Position numbers and translations under genes: made by a program. Below are positions 26,929-35,986 of a DNA stretch of 64,000 nucleotides, one piece after another; positions within the stretch are counted from its first letter, which is position 1, and every line of letters starts with the position of its first letter. The notes under the pieces are model-generated. The model did not search any database. It was not told the DNA's origin and saw only the letters and a program-made list of their open reading frames with translations. Origin of the DNA: a virus; the IMG/VR virus record IMGVR_UViG_3300044638_007100, one strand, 5' to 3'.

Positions 26929-27516
26929 TTATTGAACTGGTATTTGTTGTGGAGTTTCTTCAGGAACAATCATCGGCGTTTGTTCTGAATCTTCTACAGA
27001 TAATTTAGAATTTTTTTCAGTTATAGATCTAAGCATCCATACAAATTTACCATGAGATTCCATTAAATCTTGAAGTAAACTTTCGGTTGCATATGATCTT
27101 TGATTTCCTGCTTCCTCAGATGCTTCTGTTAAAAGTTCAATAAGAATCATATTATCAGTCATCAATCTTTTAACCATTTCATCAGATTTAACAACTGGTT
27201 TTCCTGGAACAATTTGCTTTTGTCCCAGTTCATCCATTTGAATAATATTAGAACCTTCGCCAATAGAAGAAACTTCAACAATTCTTGAAAGAGACCCAAT
27301 TGGACGAATATTCAAATATCTCATATGCTCAGATAAACGATCAATTTCTTCAAACATTGCTTCATATTGTTCTCCAAAAAGAGTATGAAGTTGTTGAAAA
27401 TCAGATCCAACAACATTCCAATGAAAAACCCATGTTTTATGAAACAAAATAAAAAGATTTGCCTGAATATCACTAATTAATTTGTATAATTTTTCCATTA
27501 TATCATACTTTTTCAA
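26929..27516 (-). CDS. dps: Dps (ferritin-like DNA starvation/stress protein)
   Basis: HKTWVFHWNVVGSDFQQLHTLFGEQY..IDRLSEH; HGKFVWML; TATAAATA upstream. Confidence 0.9.
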   Translation of the reverse strand: MKKYDIMEKLYKLISDIQANLFILFHKTWVFHWNVVGSDFQQLHTLFGEQYEAMFEEIDRLSEHMRYLNIRPIGSLSRIVEVSSIGEGSNIIQMDELGQKQIVPGKPVVKSDEMVKRLMTDNMILIELLTEASEEAGNQRSYATESLLQDLMESHGKFVWMLRSITEKNSKLSVEDSEQTPMIVPEETPQQIPVQ

Positions 27517-27749: not shown

Positions 27750-29276
27750 TCAGAAAGTGAACTTGGTCTGGATAATACCACCGAAGTTGGAAGAAGCACC
27801 AGTGAATGCCTGATTGTTAGAAACATAGAACACTGCAGGAGTGATCGAAATGTTGTCACTCACACGGTACTTGTAGAATGCTTCCCACATAAGGGCATCC
27901 TTAGAAAGACCAGCAGCATTGCCAGGTTGACCGATAGCAAAACCAGCACCGTTACCCTTAGCAAATACATCACTCCACTGAAGACCAGCGAACCAACTTT
28001 GCGAATCAGTAGCAGCATTAGGAGTTGCTTTTCCAAGAGCATTCCGACTTACATTGTTCCAACCATAACCAGCACTCACAGAAGGAATGACGCCAGATTT
28101 GGAAGGTTGCCAGTAAGCACTGATACCATAACCATTAGAGGTTTGACCAGGAGCAAGAGCACCAGATCCACCAGCAACAGCGTTGAAGATGCGAACACGA
28201 GTTCCTTCAGTACCATAACGATAACCAAAGGCAGCACCCCACTGAGGAGCACGATAACCAATCTGTGCCAGAGTATTCAGACCACCAGATTGGTTGAACT
28301 CACCTCTGTTGGATTCAGAACCATTCTGAGCAACATAGTTTACACCAGCAACAAGTCCACCTTTCTTTCCAGGTTGAACATACTGAAGACCAAAACCAGA
28401 TCCAGTTGCCTTGTTATAGACACCAGGAGCACCGGCAAGTTGGAAGAAGTCCAGAACATCCGACTTATATGCCGAAGGAATCCATGACATCTCAGTGTTA
28501 CGAACCAGAGCACCAGCAGTAGCAGTCATGCCCTTAGTAAGAACAGGGAACTGGTAATACAGACGATCCAACCACACGTTGCTGGAAGTTCCAGTACCTT
28601 GAGAAGTTTCTGCCTTATCCAGTTTGAAGAGGGAGTTGGAAGAACCGAAAGGTTGAGCAGAGAAATTACCCGAACGAAGGCGAGTACGAAGTAGATCTTT
28701 ACCAGTGAACGATGTATCAAAGTTCAGACGAAGATCATAGTTGAATGCAGTATTACCAACATTCGTGCTGGGAGCATTACGAGTAGCACCAGGAGTCTGA
28801 GCACCACCAACACCACCAAGAACAAAGTTTGCTTCACCACGAAGTTTGGTAGTGGTGGAGAACTGAGTTGCTTCCAGGCGACCAACTTGTGTTTCCAGTT
28901 TGGTTACACGACCACGAATAACTGCAAGTTCAGCACCAAATTCTTTCATAAGGCGTTGAAGTTCGTCGGTAACTTCCGTCACACGATCCAGGCAGGCGTT
29001 CAGCAGTGCTGCTGCCTCATAACGGGTCATTGATTGACCACCAGCATAAGTGCCGTTAGGGTAACCGGCAACACAACCGTAACGCTCTACAAGGGAGGAG
29101 AGTGCCCCGTATGCCCAATCAGTAGACTTTACATCGGAGAATTGTGAAACGCTTGTAACCTGTTCCGAAGTGGAATATTGGTTGACTGCTGCAATATTAA
29201 GATCTGCCGCATTCGCAGCAACAGGAGCAACCATTCCCAGAGCAACAGGCGCAAGCATCAGTTGTTTGAGTTTCAT
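27750..29276 (-). CDS. Cyanobacterial outer-membrane porin (SLH domain + OprB/Som type)
   Basis: Signal peptide; FSDVKSTDWAY..LVERYGC..MTRYEAAALL SLH; FSTTTKLRG; terminal Phe. Confidence 0.92.
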   Translation of the reverse strand: MKLKQLMLAPVALGMVAPVAANAADLNIAAVNQYSTSEQVTSVSQFSDVKSTDWAYGALSSLVERYGCVAGYPNGTYAGGQSMTRYEAAALLNACLDRVTEVTDELQRLMKEFGAELAVIRGRVTKLETQVGRLEATQFSTTTKLRGEANFVLGGVGGAQTPGATRNAPSTNVGNTAFNYDLRLNFDTSFTGKDLLRTRLRSGNFSAQPFGSSNSLFKLDKAETSQGTGTSSNVWLDRLYYQFPVLTKGMTATAGALVRNTEMSWIPSAYKSDVLDFFQLAGAPGVYNKATGSGFGLQYVQPGKKGGLVAGVNYVAQNGSESNRGEFNQSGGLNTLAQIGYRAPQWGAAFGYRYGTEGTRVRIFNAVAGGSGALAPGQTSNGYGISAYWQPSKSGVIPSVSAGYGWNNVSRNALGKATPNAATDSQSWFAGLQWSDVFAKGNGAGFAIGQPGNAAGLSKDALMWEAFYKYRVSDNISITPAVFYVSNNQAFTGASSNFGGIIQTKFTF

Positions 29277-29334: not shown

Positions 29335-29406
29335 AGCGGATGATCGGATTCGAACCGACGACAAACTGCTTGGAAGGCAGCCATTCTACCACTGAATTAC
29401 ATCCGC
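29335..29406 (-). tRNA. tRNA-Gly(UCC)
   Basis: Cloverleaf; loop CTTCCAA. Confidence 0.9.
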
Positions 29407-29410
29407 ATTA

Positions 29411-29456
29411 CTAGATGATTTTGTTGCATAACCTGCGGTAATTGCTGAATCATCTA
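29411..29456 (-). repeat. CAGCAA stem element 1
   Basis: TAGATGATT-CAGCAA-loop-AATCATCTA. Confidence 0.8.
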
Positions 29457-29457
29457 A

Positions 29458-29575
29458 CGCCGAAGTCGGGAATTGAACCCGAACTTTTCCCTGACAATGG
29501 AATTTAGAGTAATTGCTGTCCGTATCTAAAACTAGATAACTGCTTTTTAACGTGCTACCGTTACACTACTTCGGC
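29458..29575 (-). ncRNA. tRNA body with a 47-nt CAGCAA insert (29502-29548) in the anticodon stem
   Basis: Acceptor GCCGAAG/CTTCGGC; D arm; T arm TCGGG-TTCAATT-CCCGA; deleting the insert restores TTTCC-ATTGTCA-GGGAA. Confidence 0.75.
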
Positions 29576-29579
29576 ATTA

Positions 29580-29644
29580 CTAGATAGTTTTTATTTTTCG
29601 GATAAAAATTTGGCGAAAAAGTTTTAAATTGCTGAACTATCTAA
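29580..29644 (-). repeat. CAGCAA stem element 3
   Basis: TAGATAGTT-CAGCAA-loop-AACTATCTA. Confidence 0.8.
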
Positions 29645-29646
29645 AG

Positions 29647-29759
29647 TGGGGAAGGTAAGATTCGAACTTACGACCAACGGCTCCCAATGCATTTTAATTG
29701 CTGTTAACATCTTAACAAGATGTATTTTTTCGTTGCTCTACCAACTGAGCTACTTCCCC
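29647..29759 (-). ncRNA. tRNA-Pro(UGG)-like body with a 40-nt CAGCAA insert (29691-29730)
   Basis: Acceptor GGGGAAG/CTTCCCC-A; deleting the insert restores ACGGC-ATTGGGA-GCCGT. Confidence 0.8.
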
Positions 29760-29766
29760 ATTAGAA

Positions 29767-29847
29767 CGAGATTATTTGAGATAAGGGATCGAACCTTAAC
29801 CATCTATGCAGATAGTTTCAACCAGAAGGGTTTGCTGAATAATCTCT
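29767..29847 (-). ncRNA. tRNA mimic closed by a CAGCAA stem
   Basis: GAGATTATT-CAGCAA...AATAATCTC enclosing a D-like arm, ACTATC/GATGGT hairpin and T arm TAAGG-TTCGATC-CCTTA. Confidence 0.7.
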
Positions 29848-29880: not shown

Positions 29881-31344
29881 TCAGGAGAATACTTCTCCCA
29901 CCGCATCATAACGTTCATTATACACGGTTTCGTTCATAGTGTCAATAGGAGTAATGACACTATCGGTTAGAACAGACTTCAGAATAGAAGAACTGCAACC
30001 GGATACCAGACAAGTGCCAGTATCGTGTGCCTTAATAGGTACATTACCATAAGAGTTCACATTCCAAAAAACCAGTTGAGGCATTTCATACCCTGCCTTA
30101 CGGTAGAGTTTTTGAATTTGCTCAAAATTGGTTCTCTTGTTGGAGCGGCAGCACTGGTCAAACTGCATGTCAGAGACAATGATCAGTTTTTGAGGCATAT
30201 CCTCCGCAGGAACATTATTCTTTACTCCAGCATCCAGAACAGTTTTGAATACTGCCATCAGGTCGGTATTCATCTGCCAAGCAGCACGAGAAAGATTCTC
30301 AACCCGCTTACCGATGGTAGAACCAACGATGGATTGAAGTTCAGGTTGTGCAGAGAAAGTCAGGAACTTGTTCTTCCAAACTTGAGCAGTATTACGCTCT
30401 GCAATATACATCGCAAGAGAGATAGACACTGCCATAGGGCGACCCATCATAGATCCAGAAACGTCTGCAACTACCAGACCGTTAAACTCTTTACCTTCCA
30501 TGTAGTTAGGAAGTGCTTCCCACTGCAGGTCAATGGTTTTGTCGTTACGAGCACCCTTGTAGAGATACTGTTCAACAATATCATATGGATAGAGAGTTGC
30601 TGCATTGATCTTTGCTTCACCCTTCTCAACGGCACTGAGATAATCAGCATACCGAGTTGCATCTTGCTTTGCGAATGCTTTGCGATACATGAAAGCAGCA
30701 CGGGAAGGCAGTTTGGAATAATCAATTACAGACCATTCCTTAGAGCACATTGCCTTTTCAACAACGTTAATGTGAGTACGAAGATTGCTGAGAACCTTAC
30801 GATACTCGCGCTCAGTCATGCCAAGATGTGCGGCAATCTTACGACCTAGACGCTTGCTATCTTTGCTAGAAGCATTGATAGAAGGCATCCATTTGGCAAG
30901 CAGAGATACTGGTGCGCCTGCTTTGAAGGAAACACGATCCAGATTCATTTGATTCTGAATTGCATTCAGCACAGTTTCCCAGGCAGAAGTGTTTTCCAGA
31001 ACAAGAAGGTCATCCCAACGTCCATATACAGGAACCAGAGAAACCAGTTTTTCACCAATTTCACCATTATCTTCTACCAGATATTTGAAGAGGTTACGGA
31101 AAACTTCACGCTCACCTTGTCCCCCACGAATATCCCGTGCCCAGAAGAGAATACGAGTAGCAGTCTCAGGATTCTCCGCATATGCATGGGCAAAAAGTTT
31201 TTGTGCTTGCTTGACATCATTACGGCAAGCAGCGATTTTTCCGAAAAGATCCAGACACTTATTCAGAGTGGATTTGTATGCTTTTGCACCGTTCAGAGTT
31301 TCGGTGACATTCATTTCGGATTCAAGAGCATTCATAAAAGTCAT
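29881..31344 (-). CDS. DUF2828 family TROVE/Ro60-like protein with C-terminal vWA domain
   Basis: STLNKCLDLF; FWARDIRGGQGER; YGRWDDL; LAKWMPS; ADVSGSM (MIDAS); TD; VSDMQFD; VFWNV. Confidence 0.85.
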   Translation of the reverse strand: MTFMNALESEMNVTETLNGAKAYKSTLNKCLDLFGKIAACRNDVKQAQKLFAHAYAENPETATRILFWARDIRGGQGEREVFRNLFKYLVEDNGEIGEKLVSLVPVYGRWDDLLVLENTSAWETVLNAIQNQMNLDRVSFKAGAPVSLLAKWMPSINASSKDSKRLGRKIAAHLGMTEREYRKVLSNLRTHINVVEKAMCSKEWSVIDYSKLPSRAAFMYRKAFAKQDATRYADYLSAVEKGEAKINAATLYPYDIVEQYLYKGARNDKTIDLQWEALPNYMEGKEFNGLVVADVSGSMMGRPMAVSISLAMYIAERNTAQVWKNKFLTFSAQPELQSIVGSTIGKRVENLSRAAWQMNTDLMAVFKTVLDAGVKNNVPAEDMPQKLIIVSDMQFDQCCRSNKRTNFEQIQKLYRKAGYEMPQLVFWNVNSYGNVPIKAHDTGTCLVSGCSSSILKSVLTDSVITPIDTMNETVYNERYDAVGEVFS

Positions 31345-31355
31345 AATTTTTCTCC

Positions 31356-31410
31356 AAGTTGATGTTTAGTTGTTTTTCAGATACAATTAGGTTGATTGCT
31401 GAATCAACTT
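31356..31410 (-). repeat. CAGCAA stem element 6 in the DUF2828 5' UTR
   Basis: AAGTTGAT-T-CAGCAA-loop-ATCAACTT followed directly by GGAG and the ATG. Confidence 0.8.
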
Positions 31411-31418
31411 TGTTGAGC

Positions 31419-31479
31419 AAGATGAGTTTTTTGCTTGTTAGATTAAGAGTCTAGTGCAGTTTTTTTGCTGCCTCATCTT
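31419..31479 (-). repeat. CAGCAA stem element 7
   Basis: AAGATGAG-G-CAGCAA-loop-CTCATCTT. Confidence 0.8.
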
Positions 31480-31497
31480 AGAACACCCGAAGGTGTA

Positions 31498-31656: not shown

Positions 31657-32127
31657 TCAACCGATTACATATTCTTTCCATTCTGAAACACGACTCTTTT
31701 GAAGATCCAAATAAACACGGTTGAAAGGTGCTTCTGGATTTTTCTTCAAAATCATATTTGTTTCGGAAAGAAAATGATTTCCTTTCTTTAAGTTACATTT
31801 GGTGCAACAGGCAACTAGATTTTCCCATGTGTCCTGTCCACCTCTTGAACGAGGAATCACATGGTCAATTGTAAGATCTTTCTTGGATCCACAGTATTGA
31901 CATTCATGATCATCCCTCTTGTAGATAAGTGCTCTTGTAGGATAAGAGTCTTTTCCACGATTAAAAGGAATTTTTACATAACTGACTAAACGAATCACAC
32001 GCTTAGTAATAAGTCTTGCTTTGTCCTTGAAAAGAAGAACAATTGCTCTTTTCCAGTTTGTAAAATGTAATGGTTCATAAGAACTGTTTAGAACCAGTAT
32101 TGTACTATGTGGTTCTATGGATTCCAT
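31657..32127 (-). CDS. HNH endonuclease (McrA-like)
   Basis: LVLNSSYEPL; CQYCG..LTIDHVIPRSRGG..WENLVACCTKCNLKKGN. Confidence 0.9.
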   Translation of the reverse strand: MESIEPHSTILVLNSSYEPLHFTNWKRAIVLLFKDKARLITKRVIRLVSYVKIPFNRGKDSYPTRALIYKRDDHECQYCGSKKDLTIDHVIPRSRGGQDTWENLVACCTKCNLKKGNHFLSETNMILKKNPEAPFNRVYLDLQKSRVSEWKEYVIG

Positions 32128-33867: not shown

Positions 33868-33959
33868 TTGAGAGAAGATGGAATCGAACCACCATTGCCA
33901 AGGGACGGAATCGAACCGCCTCTAACACCGTCGTGCTCACCACCAAGGTGCTCTCTCAA
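33868..33959 (-). ncRNA. tRNA-like element with two T-arms and no anticodon loop
   Basis: TTGAGAGA/TCTCTCAA closing stem; GGCGG-TTCGATT-CCGTC and GGTGG-TTCGATT-CCATC. Confidence 0.65.
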
Positions 33960-34418: not shown

Positions 34419-34489
34419 TCGGGATAGAAGGTACTGCCCCCTCTTCGCTGCGTCCCAAACGCAGAGTTATACTTTTCTACTATATCCCG
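34419..34489 (-). tRNA. tRNA-Pro(UGG), divergent D and T loops
   Basis: CTGCG-TTTGGGA-CGCAG; C1-G72; A73. Confidence 0.75.
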
Positions 34490-35036
34490 TTGTTTTTATG
34501 TAATCCTCAATTAAAGGACTTACCAAGTGTCTATGTCTAGAATGAAACATCCTATGATGATTTGGACATAATGGTATTAGATTTTCTGGATTGTTATTTT
34601 GTTTATTGTAGTCATTATGATGAACTTCAACAATTAAATCAAAACCACAAACACAACACTTTTTTGGATGGTGTGTAAAGCATATTTTGCGATAGTGTGC
34701 ATCGCCATCGAATCCATCCTTATAGTTTGGGTTGTTTTCCCCACTTCTAAAAAAAGTATTAGAGCAAGACCTTGAACAAACCGTTTTTTCGTCTTTACTC
34801 CCTTTTAGAGTTTCAAATAAAGTACTACAAACTGGACATTCTTTTTTAATTAATTCATATTTTCTTGGAGGTTCATATTTTGGAACTTTTATTCCAAATT
34901 GGTTTTGAAGAAATTTAATTTTTCTCCTCCAAGTTCCATTATCACAACCTCCAAGTTTTTTAATAACTTGTCCAGGACCGTTTGATGTTGAACAAGCAAC
35001 TTCAAATTGTTCTTTAGTTATGATTTTGTTTTTCAT
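34467..35036 (-). mobile_element. HNH homing endonuclease-like gene inside the tRNA array
   Basis: CPVC..CSRSC; NPNYKDG; CCVCG..VEVHH.D....NNNPENLIPLCPNHH; own TATAAATA at 35076-35083. Confidence 0.8.
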
Positions 35037-35838: not shown

Positions 35839-35844
35839 GTAAAC

Positions 35845-35896
35845 TAGATGATTGTTTTTTCTACCAAAAAGAAAGTAAGAATTGCTGAATCATCTA
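35845..35896 (-). repeat. CAGCAA stem element 8
   Basis: TAGATGATT-CAGCAA-loop-AATCATCTA; stem identical to element 1. Confidence 0.8.
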
Positions 35897-35897
35897 A

Positions 35898-35986
35898 TGG
35901 GAGAAGAGGGAATTGAACCCCCGAGGCTAAAAAACCACTCCAGTTTTACAGACTGGTACTACGTTGCCAACAGTAGACATCCTCCC
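35898..35986 (-). tRNA. tRNA-Tyr(GUA)
   Basis: Loop CTGTAAA; long variable arm. Confidence 0.88.

What the first reader, a model, noticed from the sequence alone, without database searches (positions are those of the whole stretch)
29458..29759. Two intact tRNA bodies carrying a circularly permuted CAGCAA module inside the anticodon stem
Seen: removing 29691-29730 (40 nt) gives a perfect cloverleaf, GGGGAAG..ACGGC-ATTGGGA-GCCGT..CTTCCCC-A (UGG, Pro-like). Removing 29502-29548 (47 nt) gives GCCGAAG..TTTCC-ATTGTCA-GGGAA..CTTCGGC-G. The latter reads UGU with a 7-nt loop, or GUC with an 8-nt loop; G73 favours Asp. Both inserts begin AAAAA, hold a hairpin followed by CAGCAA, end in AAAT, and sit at nearly the same place (after position 28 or 29). 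They are the free element turned inside out: the stem is closed by a small loop and opens onto the tRNA. Ordinary Pro, Asp and Thr tRNAs exist elsewhere in the array, so these copies are free to take another role. Inference: they are either protein-tethered tRNA decoys (for example for host anticodon nucleases or synthetases) or a novel short tRNA intron class.
Basis: partly seen in the sequence, partly recalled or inferred. Interest (0 to 1): 0.87.

Follow-up and report, generated by a model that had tools for sequence, protein, structure and literature searches.

The report
tRNA look-alikes with a protein handle
Two tRNA-shaped RNAs in a cyanophage tRNA cluster carry, inside the anticodon stem, the conserved "handle" also found on the small RNAs around a neighbouring Ro60-like protein gene. 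They are most likely protein-bound tRNA mimics of an undescribed Ro60/Y-RNA-type particle, not tRNAs with introns.

Summary
On the minus strand, 29759..29647 and 29575..29458 are tRNA-shaped RNAs (Rfam tRNA 54.6 and 45.6 bits). Deleting exactly the stated 40 and 47 nt gives ARAGORN-called tRNA-Pro(UGG) and tRNA-Thr(UGU).

The insert is the conserved part. It is a covarying hairpin followed by a nearly invariant ACAGCAAU. A covariance model found such RNAs in 42 of 80 phage loci encoding a DUF2828/DUF7788 protein (34-99% identical), always on the gene strand. It found none in about 88 unrelated viral loci, and only one in the whole 245-kb genome of phage B3, next to that gene.

The protein's predicted structure matches Ro60 over its full length (Z 22.9). 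In 52 of 91 distinct RNAs the handle splits a perfect 5-bp anticodon stem. Another 29 have no anticodon stem-loop at all, including the counterpart in a phage whose protein is 99% identical. The insertion point varies, there is no bulge-helix-bulge, and B3 encodes no splicing endonuclease or RtcB.

Best reading: a Ro60/Y-RNA-like particle whose partner RNAs include whole tRNA mimics. The intron reading is disfavoured and the decoy role is untested. This scan has noted the same system on other DNA. I found no Rfam family or paper describing it.

The parts
29647..29759 (-). Handle-bearing tRNA-shaped RNA A: acceptor, D arm and T arm intact. The anticodon stem ACG|GC / GCCGT is split by a 40-nt insert. 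The loop reads AUUGGGA (UGG).
   Evidence: Rfam tRNA 54.6 bits. R1 model 56.3 bits. ARAGORN calls tRNA-Pro(tgg) after deletion of the insert.
29691..29730 (-). Insert (handle) of RNA A: A-run, 7-bp hairpin 29723..29707, three-nucleotide spacer, CAGCAA at 29703..29698, A/U-rich tail.
   Evidence: Sequence. Module scan. The homologue in phage B3 shows compensatory changes in the hairpin.
29458..29575 (-). Handle-bearing tRNA-shaped RNA B: intact acceptor, D and T arms. The anticodon stem UU|UCC / GGGAA is split by a 47-nt insert. The loop reads AUUGUCA (UGU, with C37).
   Evidence: Rfam tRNA 45.6 bits. R1 135.3 bits. ARAGORN calls tRNA-Thr(tgt) after deletion. Alignment A2 is 100% paired with 11 covarying pairs.
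29502..29548 (-). Insert (handle) of RNA B: A-run, 6-bp hairpin 29538..29523, four-nucleotide spacer, CAGCAA at 29518..29513, A/U-rich tail.
   Evidence: Sequence..
29881..31344 (-). Gene for a 487-aa DUF2828 + DUF7788 protein with a predicted Ro60-type fold (helical-repeat ring plus vWA domain with the DxSxS MIDAS motif).
   Evidence: Pfam. Invariant D294/S296/S298. AF2 model pLDDT 91.2. Foldseek: the top 12 listed matches are Ro60 proteins or a TROVE-domain structure. VIA Z 22.9 to 1yvr over 404 residues.
29917..29945 (-). Perfect sigma-70 consensus promoter (12 of 12) inside the 3' end of the protein gene, pointing into the RNA array.
   Evidence: Relatives carry a TTGACA-type promoter at the same relative place.
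29768..29846 (-). Free handle RNA E3: a 9-bp terminal stem, CAGCAA, and an interior with a second hairpin and a T-arm-like hairpin.
29580..29644 (-). Free handle RNA E2: the spacer between the two tRNA-shaped RNAs, with a 10-bp terminal stem followed by CAGCAA.
29411..29457 (-). Free handle RNA E1: the spacer between RNA B and tRNA-Gly, with a 10-bp terminal stem followed by CAGCAA.
31356..31480 (-). Two free handle elements (31480..31418 and 31410..31356) between tRNA-Val and the start codon of the protein gene.
35843..35898 (-). A further free handle element in the tRNA array, between tRNA-Tyr and tRNA-Met, with an 11-bp stem.
29335..29406 (-). Ordinary tRNA-Gly(UCC) that closes the unit.

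Best explanation
The two RNAs are partner RNAs of the adjacent Ro60-like (DUF2828/DUF7788) protein. They are Y-RNA-type molecules built on a whole tRNA scaffold.

Inferred course of events. The array E3, RNA A, E2, RNA B, E1, tRNA-Gly is transcribed from the strong promoter at 29945..29917. Host RNase P and RNase Z cut at the tRNA-shaped borders. This releases the 113- and 118-nt tRNA mimics and also the spacers. The spacers' paired 5' and 3' ends make them free handle RNAs.

The handle is a hairpin with a conserved U-C...G-A core followed by single-stranded ACAGCAAU and flanked by A-rich linkers. I take it to be the protein's binding site. In these two RNAs it bulges out of the 5' strand of an otherwise continuous anticodon stem and is not removed. 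The protein would then sit beside the anticodon arm. The elbow and acceptor end, and in these two copies an anticodon-like loop, stay exposed. They could engage a tRNA-recognising partner, as Y RNAs tether or gate Ro60.

Shown here: the RNA structure, its conservation, the gene-RNA linkage and the protein fold. Inferred: binding, processing, non-splicing and the biological role.
For: 1. The protein fold is Ro60. The AF2 model has pLDDT 91.2. Foldseek's top 12 listed matches are Ro60 proteins or a TROVE-domain structure. VIA gives Z 22.9, rmsd 3.8 A, 404 residues aligned over the whole length; vWA-only matches start at Z 11. The MIDAS DxSxS motif is invariant in 57 relatives.

2. Gene and RNA are linked.
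- Model R1 finds handle-bearing tRNA-like RNAs (105 nt or longer) in 42 of 80 DUF2828 loci, all on the gene strand.
- Free handle elements occur 126 times on the gene strand against 6 on the opposite strand, in 62 of 80 loci. 65 of 80 loci carry either form.
- In 944 kb of other viral loci, long matches occur only in 12 loci. Nine of these carry a DUF2828 homologue; of the other three, at least two are cut off close to the RNAs. (In all, tblastn found a homologue in 11 of the 116 pattern-derived loci.) About 88 unrelated loci have none.
- The complete 245-kb B3 genome has one long match, beside the gene.

3. The RNA is under selection. 98.7% of cells are paired and 20 of 22 pairs show compensatory change. 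The handle helix covaries at 5 of 6 pairs and keeps one invariant C-G. C-A-G-C-A-A is present in 63-68 of 69 distinct RNAs, with the preceding A in 56.

4. The split anticodon stem is real. 52 split stems are found at the true register, against 0-3 at shifted registers.

5. The handle, not the anticodon, is the constant. 29 of 91 RNAs lack an anticodon stem-loop. In L002 and L003 (protein 99% identical) the same body closes its stem directly on the handle.

6. Precedent. Ro60 genes in bacteria and phages have adjacent Y RNAs that mimic tRNA (PMC4201824). A phage Ro60 binds two adjacent Y-like RNAs and host PNPase (PMC12135203).
Against: - No binding, expression or processing data exist. The link is genomic only.
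- Sequence methods do not connect the protein to TROVE/Ro60: Pfam TROVE is not hit, and a profile of 57 relatives does not find Ro60 among PDB sequences.
- The handle does not resemble the Ro60-binding helix of Y RNAs. The YrlA model scores only 17 bits against a threshold of 69.
- The well-kept anticodon-like loops (U33 in 52 of 62, a purine at 37 in 53 of 62) are not needed by a pure tether and hint at something more.
- 15 of 80 gene loci show no handle RNA within 2.5 kb.
Confidence: 0.6

Rival explanations
1. The inserts are a new class of short, protein-spliced tRNA introns. They are cut out and the halves ligated, giving working tRNA-Pro(UGG) and tRNA-Thr(UGU). The Ro60-like protein could be a splicing cofactor.
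For: Precise deletion gives perfect cloverleaves. 52 of 91 relatives have a 5-bp stem split by the insert, with 7-nt loops that mostly keep U33 and a purine at 37. ARAGORN finds no standard tRNA-Pro in the window.
Against: - 29 of 91 relatives have no anticodon stem-loop at all, including the near-identical phages L002 and L003.
- The insertion point varies from 0 to 5 nt into the stem.
- The same module stands alone in tRNA spacers and mRNA leaders.
- The junctions are A-rich single strands that cannot form a bulge-helix-bulge (sequence).
- The inserts (40 and 47 nt) are far too small for a group I intron, and there is no Rfam intron match.
- B3 has no tRNA-splicing endonuclease or RtcB.
- RNA B would have C37.
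- Some relatives pair a Ser-type triplet with a short variable arm.
- The insert is the most conserved part of the RNA, which is unusual for an intron.
Confidence: 0.07
2. They are working, chargeable tRNAs that keep the handle. The handle lets the Ro60-like protein store, protect or regulate them, and the protein lets go before decoding.
For: The tRNA tertiary positions (U8, A14, G18-G19, the T loop) and the anticodon-loop frame are conserved. The triplet at positions 34-36 differs between close relatives that share an identical stem: UGG, UCG, UGU, UCU and GUU on the same ACG|GC stem. That pattern looks like anticodon switching. RNA A has a fully canonical Pro-type loop and A73.
Against: RNA B has a pyrimidine at position 37. 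In B3 a Pro-like acceptor end (C1-G72, A73) goes with a UCG triplet. A third of the family has no anticodon. A 40-50-nt bulge in the anticodon stem has no precedent in decoding tRNAs (background knowledge).
Confidence: 0.12
3. The handle is recognised by something other than the DUF2828 protein. It could be a processing or stability signal for the phage tRNA array, read by a host RNase or another phage factor. The gene linkage would then reflect only shared residence in tRNA clusters.
For: The gene usually sits inside tRNA arrays. One handle element in the window lies about 4.5 kb from the gene. 15 of 80 gene loci lack handles nearby.
Against: In the whole B3 genome the only long match abuts the gene, not the other tRNAs. 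Handles sit directly upstream of the start codon or directly downstream of the stop, on the gene strand, in very distant phages. About 88 unrelated viral loci have none.
Confidence: 0.12
4. They are decaying pseudo-tRNAs hit by a small repeat or mobile element.
For: The B3 copy is annotated as a pseudo-tRNA. The same element is repeated 8 times locally.
Against: There is pervasive compensatory covariation in every helix, including the insert. The architecture is conserved down to 34% protein identity. The split stems remain intact.
Confidence: 0.02

Closest known systems
Ro60 (Rsr) with Y RNAs, especially the tRNA-mimicking YrlA of bacteria and mycobacteriophages (Rfam RF02553; Chen et al. 2014, PMC4201824), and Thermus phage phiLo Ro60 with Yrl1/Yrl2 (PMC12135203)
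   Same: A ring-plus-vWA protein (fold match Z 22.9, MIDAS kept). Small RNA genes lie next to the protein gene. The RNAs combine a conserved protein-type handle with a tRNA-like module (T arm, D arm). The free forms pair their 5' and 3' ends as Y RNAs do.
   Different: - The protein is not recognisable as TROVE by sequence.
- The handle (hairpin plus ACAGCAAU) is unrelated to the Y-RNA Ro-binding helix. YrlA scores 17 bits against a threshold of 69.
- The topology differs. YrlA is a permuted tRNA whose anticodon arm is replaced by the Ro-binding stem. Here the tRNA is unpermuted and often complete, with the handle bulging from the 5' strand of the anticodon stem.
- There are many paralogous RNAs per locus.
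Protein-spliced tRNA introns of archaea and eukaryotes, including non-canonical positions in the anticodon stem (review PMC4090602)
   Same: A short insert inside a tRNA gene at a non-canonical position. Removing it restores a perfect cloverleaf.
   Different: There is no bulge-helix-bulge and no splicing endonuclease or RtcB in a related complete phage genome. The setting is bacterial. The insert is highly conserved, also occurs outside tRNAs, and many family members have no anticodon arm to restore.
Class I RNAs of dictyostelid social amoebae (Rfam RF01414; Kjellin et al. 2021, PMC7919456)
   Same: A short stem joins the 5' and 3' ends, a conserved motif sits directly after the 5' strand, and the interior is variable with an A-rich 3' part. 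The Rfam consensus contains ACAGCAAU. Free elements of a distant relative (L148) match the model weakly (23.7 and 23.6 bits, E about 0.05).
   Different: The matches are below the family threshold (41.5 bits). The window's own elements give no match at E up to 10. Class I RNAs are reported as unique to dictyostelids and bound by an RRM protein. No tRNA-embedded form is known there. Whether dictyostelids have the DUF2828 protein was not tested here.

Membership tests
Ro60 / Y RNA ribonucleoprotein | Protein with a TROVE helical-repeat ring plus a vWA domain with MIDAS | tested here: met
   Met at the level of fold. VIA Z 22.9, 404 of 487 residues aligned to Xenopus Ro, and ten Ro60-type entries rank first. 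Foldseek E 1e-7, TM 0.61. DxSxS is invariant. Sequence-level TROVE is not detected.
Ro60 / Y RNA ribonucleoprotein | Small non-coding RNA genes adjacent to the protein gene | tested here: met
   65 of 80 gene loci carry handle RNAs on the gene strand within 2.5 kb. The window has 7 within 1.6 kb of the gene.
Ro60 / Y RNA ribonucleoprotein | RNA carries the conserved Y-RNA helix that Ro60 binds | tested here: not met
   The YrlA covariance model gives 17.1 bits (threshold 69, E 0.81), and that alignment does not cover the handle. The conserved motif here is a different one.
Ro60 / Y RNA ribonucleoprotein | Physical binding of the RNA by the protein | not testable with these tools
   No protein-RNA modelling or experiment is available here.
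tRNA (Rfam RF00005) | Cloverleaf scoring above the family threshold | tested here: met
   54.6 and 45.6 bits against a threshold of 29, with the insert treated as an insertion. ARAGORN calls both after the insert is deleted.
tRNA (functional decoder) | 7-nt anticodon loop with U33 and a purine at 37; body matching the anticodon identity; aminoacylation | tested here: inconclusive
   RNA A meets the loop rules. RNA B has C37. Relatives mix bodies and triplets, and 29 of 91 lack the arm. Charging is not testable here.
Archaeal/eukaryal protein-spliced tRNA intron | Bulge-helix-bulge at the exon-intron junctions, and a splicing endonuclease plus ligase available | tested here: not met
   The junctions are A-rich on both sides and cannot form the 4-bp central helix (sequence). 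PF01974 and RtcB are absent from the complete B3 genome.
Group I intron in tRNA | Catalytic core of about 200 nt or more, inserted in the anticodon loop | tested here: not met
   The inserts are 40 and 47 nt and lie in the stem. No Rfam intron match at E up to 10.
Dictyostelid Class I RNA (RF01414) | Covariance-model score above threshold: terminal stem plus the 11-nt motif | tested here: not met
   No match in the window at E up to 10. Free elements of locus L148 reach 23.7 bits against a threshold of 41.5. The shared ACAGCAAU is a resemblance only.

The most novel reading that the evidence does not exclude
The handle-bearing RNAs present real anticodon stem-loops on purpose. A phage Ro60-like protein would carry a panel of full tRNA mimics with switchable 'anticodons'. 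These could act as decoys or sensors for host factors that attack or read anticodon loops, such as anticodon nucleases. Alternatively they could be protected, chargeable reserve tRNAs. Either way this would be a tRNA-centred counter-defence or quality-control particle common in large phages.
Probability: 0.2. Interest if true: 0.92.

Novelty: new variant of a known kind. Interest (0 to 1): 0.78.

Why it matters
DUF2828/DUF7788 is a very large protein family of unknown function. The library of cluster representatives holds 6,993 relatives at E up to 0.001. The family is common in phages that carry tRNA arrays.

This work gives it a Ro60 fold and a defined, testable RNA partner motif, which turns it into a candidate new branch of the Ro60/Y-RNA world.

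The two RNAs examined here show the most extreme form of tRNA mimicry so far linked to a Ro60-type protein. They are a complete, unpermuted tRNA with the protein handle bulging from the anticodon stem.

There are three practical consequences.
- Genome annotation: such genes are currently missed or labelled as pseudo-tRNAs.
- What Ro60-type rings do with tRNA-like RNAs is an open question even for bacterial YrlA.
- The finding bears on the biology of phage tRNA clusters and their conflict with host tRNA-targeting defences.

Tried and rejected
- Sequence-level homology to Ro60. Pfam TROVE was not hit. Neither the single sequence nor the 57-sequence profile found Ro60 among PDB sequences. Only the fold comparison connects them.
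- Known RNA families. Rfam at permissive thresholds gave only tRNA, a chance-level YrlA match and, in a distant relative, sub-threshold Class I RNA matches.
- Literature. There are no functional papers on DUF2828, nothing on Ro60 in cyanophages beyond a jumbo-phage survey, and nothing on short inserts in phage tRNA anticodon stems.
- The 16-mer DNA pattern scan of viral contigs returned mostly chance matches. I filtered these by structure and then reused the chance loci as a negative control.
- The whole genome of the window is not held, so I used the complete B3 record as a stand-in for gene-content questions.
- Neighbour look-ups for two distant relatives gave no recurrent partner gene.
- Thermodynamic folding of single sequences recovers the acceptor, T arm and handle hairpin but mis-pairs the split anticodon stem. 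I relied on comparative evidence instead.
- The Asp (GUC, 8-nt loop) reading of RNA B was rejected. Among the 91 relatives, 62 fit a 5-bp stem with a 7-nt loop, and ARAGORN reads UGU.

Full report
**Observation**

All features lie on the minus strand, inside a cyanophage-type tRNA array. ARAGORN finds 26 tRNAs between 29335 and 36613. The surrounding genes are phage-like: family B DNA polymerase, ribonucleotide reductase, tail lysozyme and glycosyltransferases.

The Rfam tRNA model matches 29759..29647 (54.6 bits) and 29575..29458 (45.6 bits) end to end, skipping a long insertion in the anticodon arm. ARAGORN misses both.

ARAGORN then called tRNA-Pro(tgg), 73 nt, and tRNA-Thr(tgt), 71 nt, with flawless cloverleaves.

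Each insert starts with an A-run. Each holds a hairpin followed, after 3-4 nt, by CAGCAA and an A/U-rich tail.

Six further copies of 'stem + CAGCAA' lie in the spacers of the same strand. There the strand before CAGCAA pairs with a strand 21-55 nt downstream. So the description 'the free element turned inside out' is accurate.

- The GUC/Asp reading of the second RNA is unsupported. Its loop reads UGU with C37.
- No ordinary tRNA-Pro is called in the window. There is only a weak Rfam tRNA match at 34489..34419 with a UGG loop and an aberrant T arm.

**The neighbouring gene**

Directly upstream (31344..29881) lies a 487-aa ORF with Pfam DUF2828 and DUF7788. No paper in the library assigns it a function.

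An alignment with 56 diverse relatives shows an invariant DxSxS (MIDAS) motif. The AlphaFold2 model is confident, with pLDDT 91.2.

Foldseek against the PDB puts Ro60-type structures in the top 12 listed places: Xenopus Ro, human Ro60, Deinococcus Rsr, Thermus phage phiLo Ro60 and a TROVE-domain structure. VIA-align gives Z 22.9, rmsd 3.8 A and 404 aligned residues spanning residues 9-464. Plain vWA domains follow only at Z about 11.

Sequence methods do not see this relationship. The protein is therefore Ro60-like in fold and domain order. It is not a recognisable TROVE family member by sequence.

**Relatives**

Synechococcus phage B3 has the same arrangement. Its DUF2828 gene gp345 is followed by free elements and a 110-nt 'tRNA-Pseudo' homologous to RNA A. 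That copy has compensatory changes in the insert hairpin and in the acceptor stem, and a different loop triplet, UCG.

Thirteen IMG/VR loci with 43-99% identical proteins were fetched. The close ones all show arrays of such RNAs downstream of the gene.

A search with the protein alignment gave 80 more loci, most with only 39-47% identity. Even there the gene is flanked by tRNA-shaped RNAs of 105-130 nt. These have a hairpin of different, covarying sequence followed by the same ACAGCAA.

**Statistics**

A covariance model (R1) was built from 20 relatives of RNA B. It found long matches in 42 of the 80 gene loci, every one on the gene strand.

In 944 kb of other viral loci, long matches occurred in 12 loci only. 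Nine of these carry a DUF2828 homologue, one of only 34% identity; of the other three, at least two are cut off close to the RNAs. About 88 unrelated loci had none.

In the complete 245-kb B3 genome the only long match is the one beside gp345.

Free elements (stem of 8 bp or more, CAGCAA, partner strand) occur 126 times on the gene strand and 6 times on the other strand of the gene loci. In twice as much control DNA they occur 20 and 19 times. In all, 65 of 80 gene loci carry one form or the other.

**RNA structure**

Over 74 distinct sequences, 98.7% of cells in the acceptor, D, T and handle helices are paired. Twenty of 22 pairs show changes on both sides. Slid controls fall to 39-50% paired.

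The handle helix covaries at 5 of 6 pairs and keeps one invariant C-G. Downstream, C-A-G-C-A-A is present in 63-68 of 69 distinct RNAs, the preceding A in 56 and the following U in 54.

Of 91 distinct RNAs, 62 can form a perfect 5-bp anticodon stem with a 7-nt loop. In 52 of these the 5' strand is split by the handle, after 1 to 5 nt following position 26. Taking the outer nucleotides from shifted registers gives only 0-3 such stems.

The loops keep U33 (52 of 62) and a purine at 37 (53 of 62). The triplet is highly variable, even among relatives with an identical stem.

The other 29 RNAs have no anticodon stem-loop. In L002 and L003, whose protein is 99% identical to the window's, the same acceptor, D and T sequences close their anticodon stem directly on the handle.

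**Interpretation**

The constant features are the tRNA elbow and acceptor, the handle, and the neighbouring Ro60-like gene. The anticodon arm is optional.

This is the logic of Ro60 with its Y RNAs. Bacterial and phage Ro60 genes have adjacent Y RNAs whose second module mimics tRNA (PMC4201824). A phage Ro60 binds two adjacent Y-like RNAs and host PNPase (PMC12135203).

I therefore read the two RNAs as partner RNAs of the DUF2828 protein. In them the binding handle is grafted into the 5' strand of the anticodon stem of a complete tRNA scaffold. They are probably released from the array by RNase P and RNase Z, together with the spacer-derived free handle RNAs.

A perfect sigma-70 promoter at 29945..29917 points into the array.

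What the tRNA body does is unknown. It could tether a tRNA-recognising enzyme, gate the ring, or act as a decoy. The well-kept anticodon-like loops keep the more adventurous readings alive.

**Rivals**

The intron reading fails on several counts.
- The anticodon arm is optional and the insertion point is variable.
- Free copies of the handle exist.
- There is no bulge-helix-bulge.
- A related complete genome lacks a splicing endonuclease and RtcB.
- RNA B has C37.
- The insert is the best-conserved segment.

A decoding tRNA that keeps its handle cannot be excluded for RNA A. It fits poorly with RNA B and with B3, where a Pro-like acceptor end goes with a UCG triplet.

A processing signal unrelated to the protein is hard to square with the position-specific linkage to the gene in very distant phages and with the B3 whole-genome result.

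Decay or a mobile repeat is excluded by the covariation.

**Comparison with the known, and novelty**

No Rfam family covers the handle or the handle-bearing RNAs. I found no paper describing them.

This scan's earlier notes describe the same gene-plus-handle system on other DNA. They also pointed to dictyostelid Class I RNAs. I checked that lead in part. The Rfam consensus of that family contains ACAGCAAU after a terminal stem. Two free elements of locus L148 match it below threshold, at 23.7 and 23.6 bits against 41.5. The window's own elements do not match.

I class the finding as a new variant of a known kind: a Ro60/Y-RNA-type particle with a different handle, a sequence-divergent protein, and a new way of fusing the handle to a whole tRNA.

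Noticed in passing
window 33869-33957 (minus strand): An 88-nt RNA-like element flush between two tRNA-Ser genes. It has a 7-bp acceptor-type stem and two T-arm-like hairpins but no anticodon arm. ARAGORN does not call it.
   Followed up: no
window 34419-34489 (minus strand): A weak Rfam tRNA match (35.5 bits) with a good UGG (Pro) anticodon arm but an aberrant T arm. Its 5' part overlaps the end of an HNH-type ORF (34467-35036). ARAGORN does not call it. It may be a damaged or unusual tRNA-Pro.
   Followed up: partly
window 27750-29276 (minus strand): The phage carries a full-length cyanobacterial-type outer-membrane porin gene (SLH domain plus OprB family) directly after the RNA array. Relatives carry it at the same place.
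   Followed up: partly
window 31657-32127 and 34467-35036 (minus strand): HNH endonuclease ORFs sit between tRNA genes of the array. In locus L013 a comparable ORF separates the DUF2828 gene from its RNA array.
   Followed up: no
window 29917-29945 (minus strand): A 12-of-12 sigma-70 consensus promoter lies inside the last 65 nt of the DUF2828 ORF and points into the RNA array. In relatives a TTGACA-type promoter overlaps the hairpin just after the stop codon.
   Followed up: partly
L148:1970-2490 (locus with 43% identical protein): Three free handle elements lie directly upstream of the DUF2828 start codon, one with a T-arm-like hairpin inside. Two give sub-threshold matches to the Rfam model of Dictyostelium Class I RNA, whose consensus contains ACAGCAAU.
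   Followed up: partly
L163:2257-2347, L172-L174, L181, L187, L194:1065 (distant loci): A minimal 91-nt class: acceptor stem and T arm with the handle hairpin and a CUGCAA or CGGCAA variant, but no D arm of normal size and no anticodon arm.
   Followed up: no
window 26929-27516 (minus strand): A ferritin-like (Dps-type) ORF lies downstream of the porin gene.
   Followed up: no
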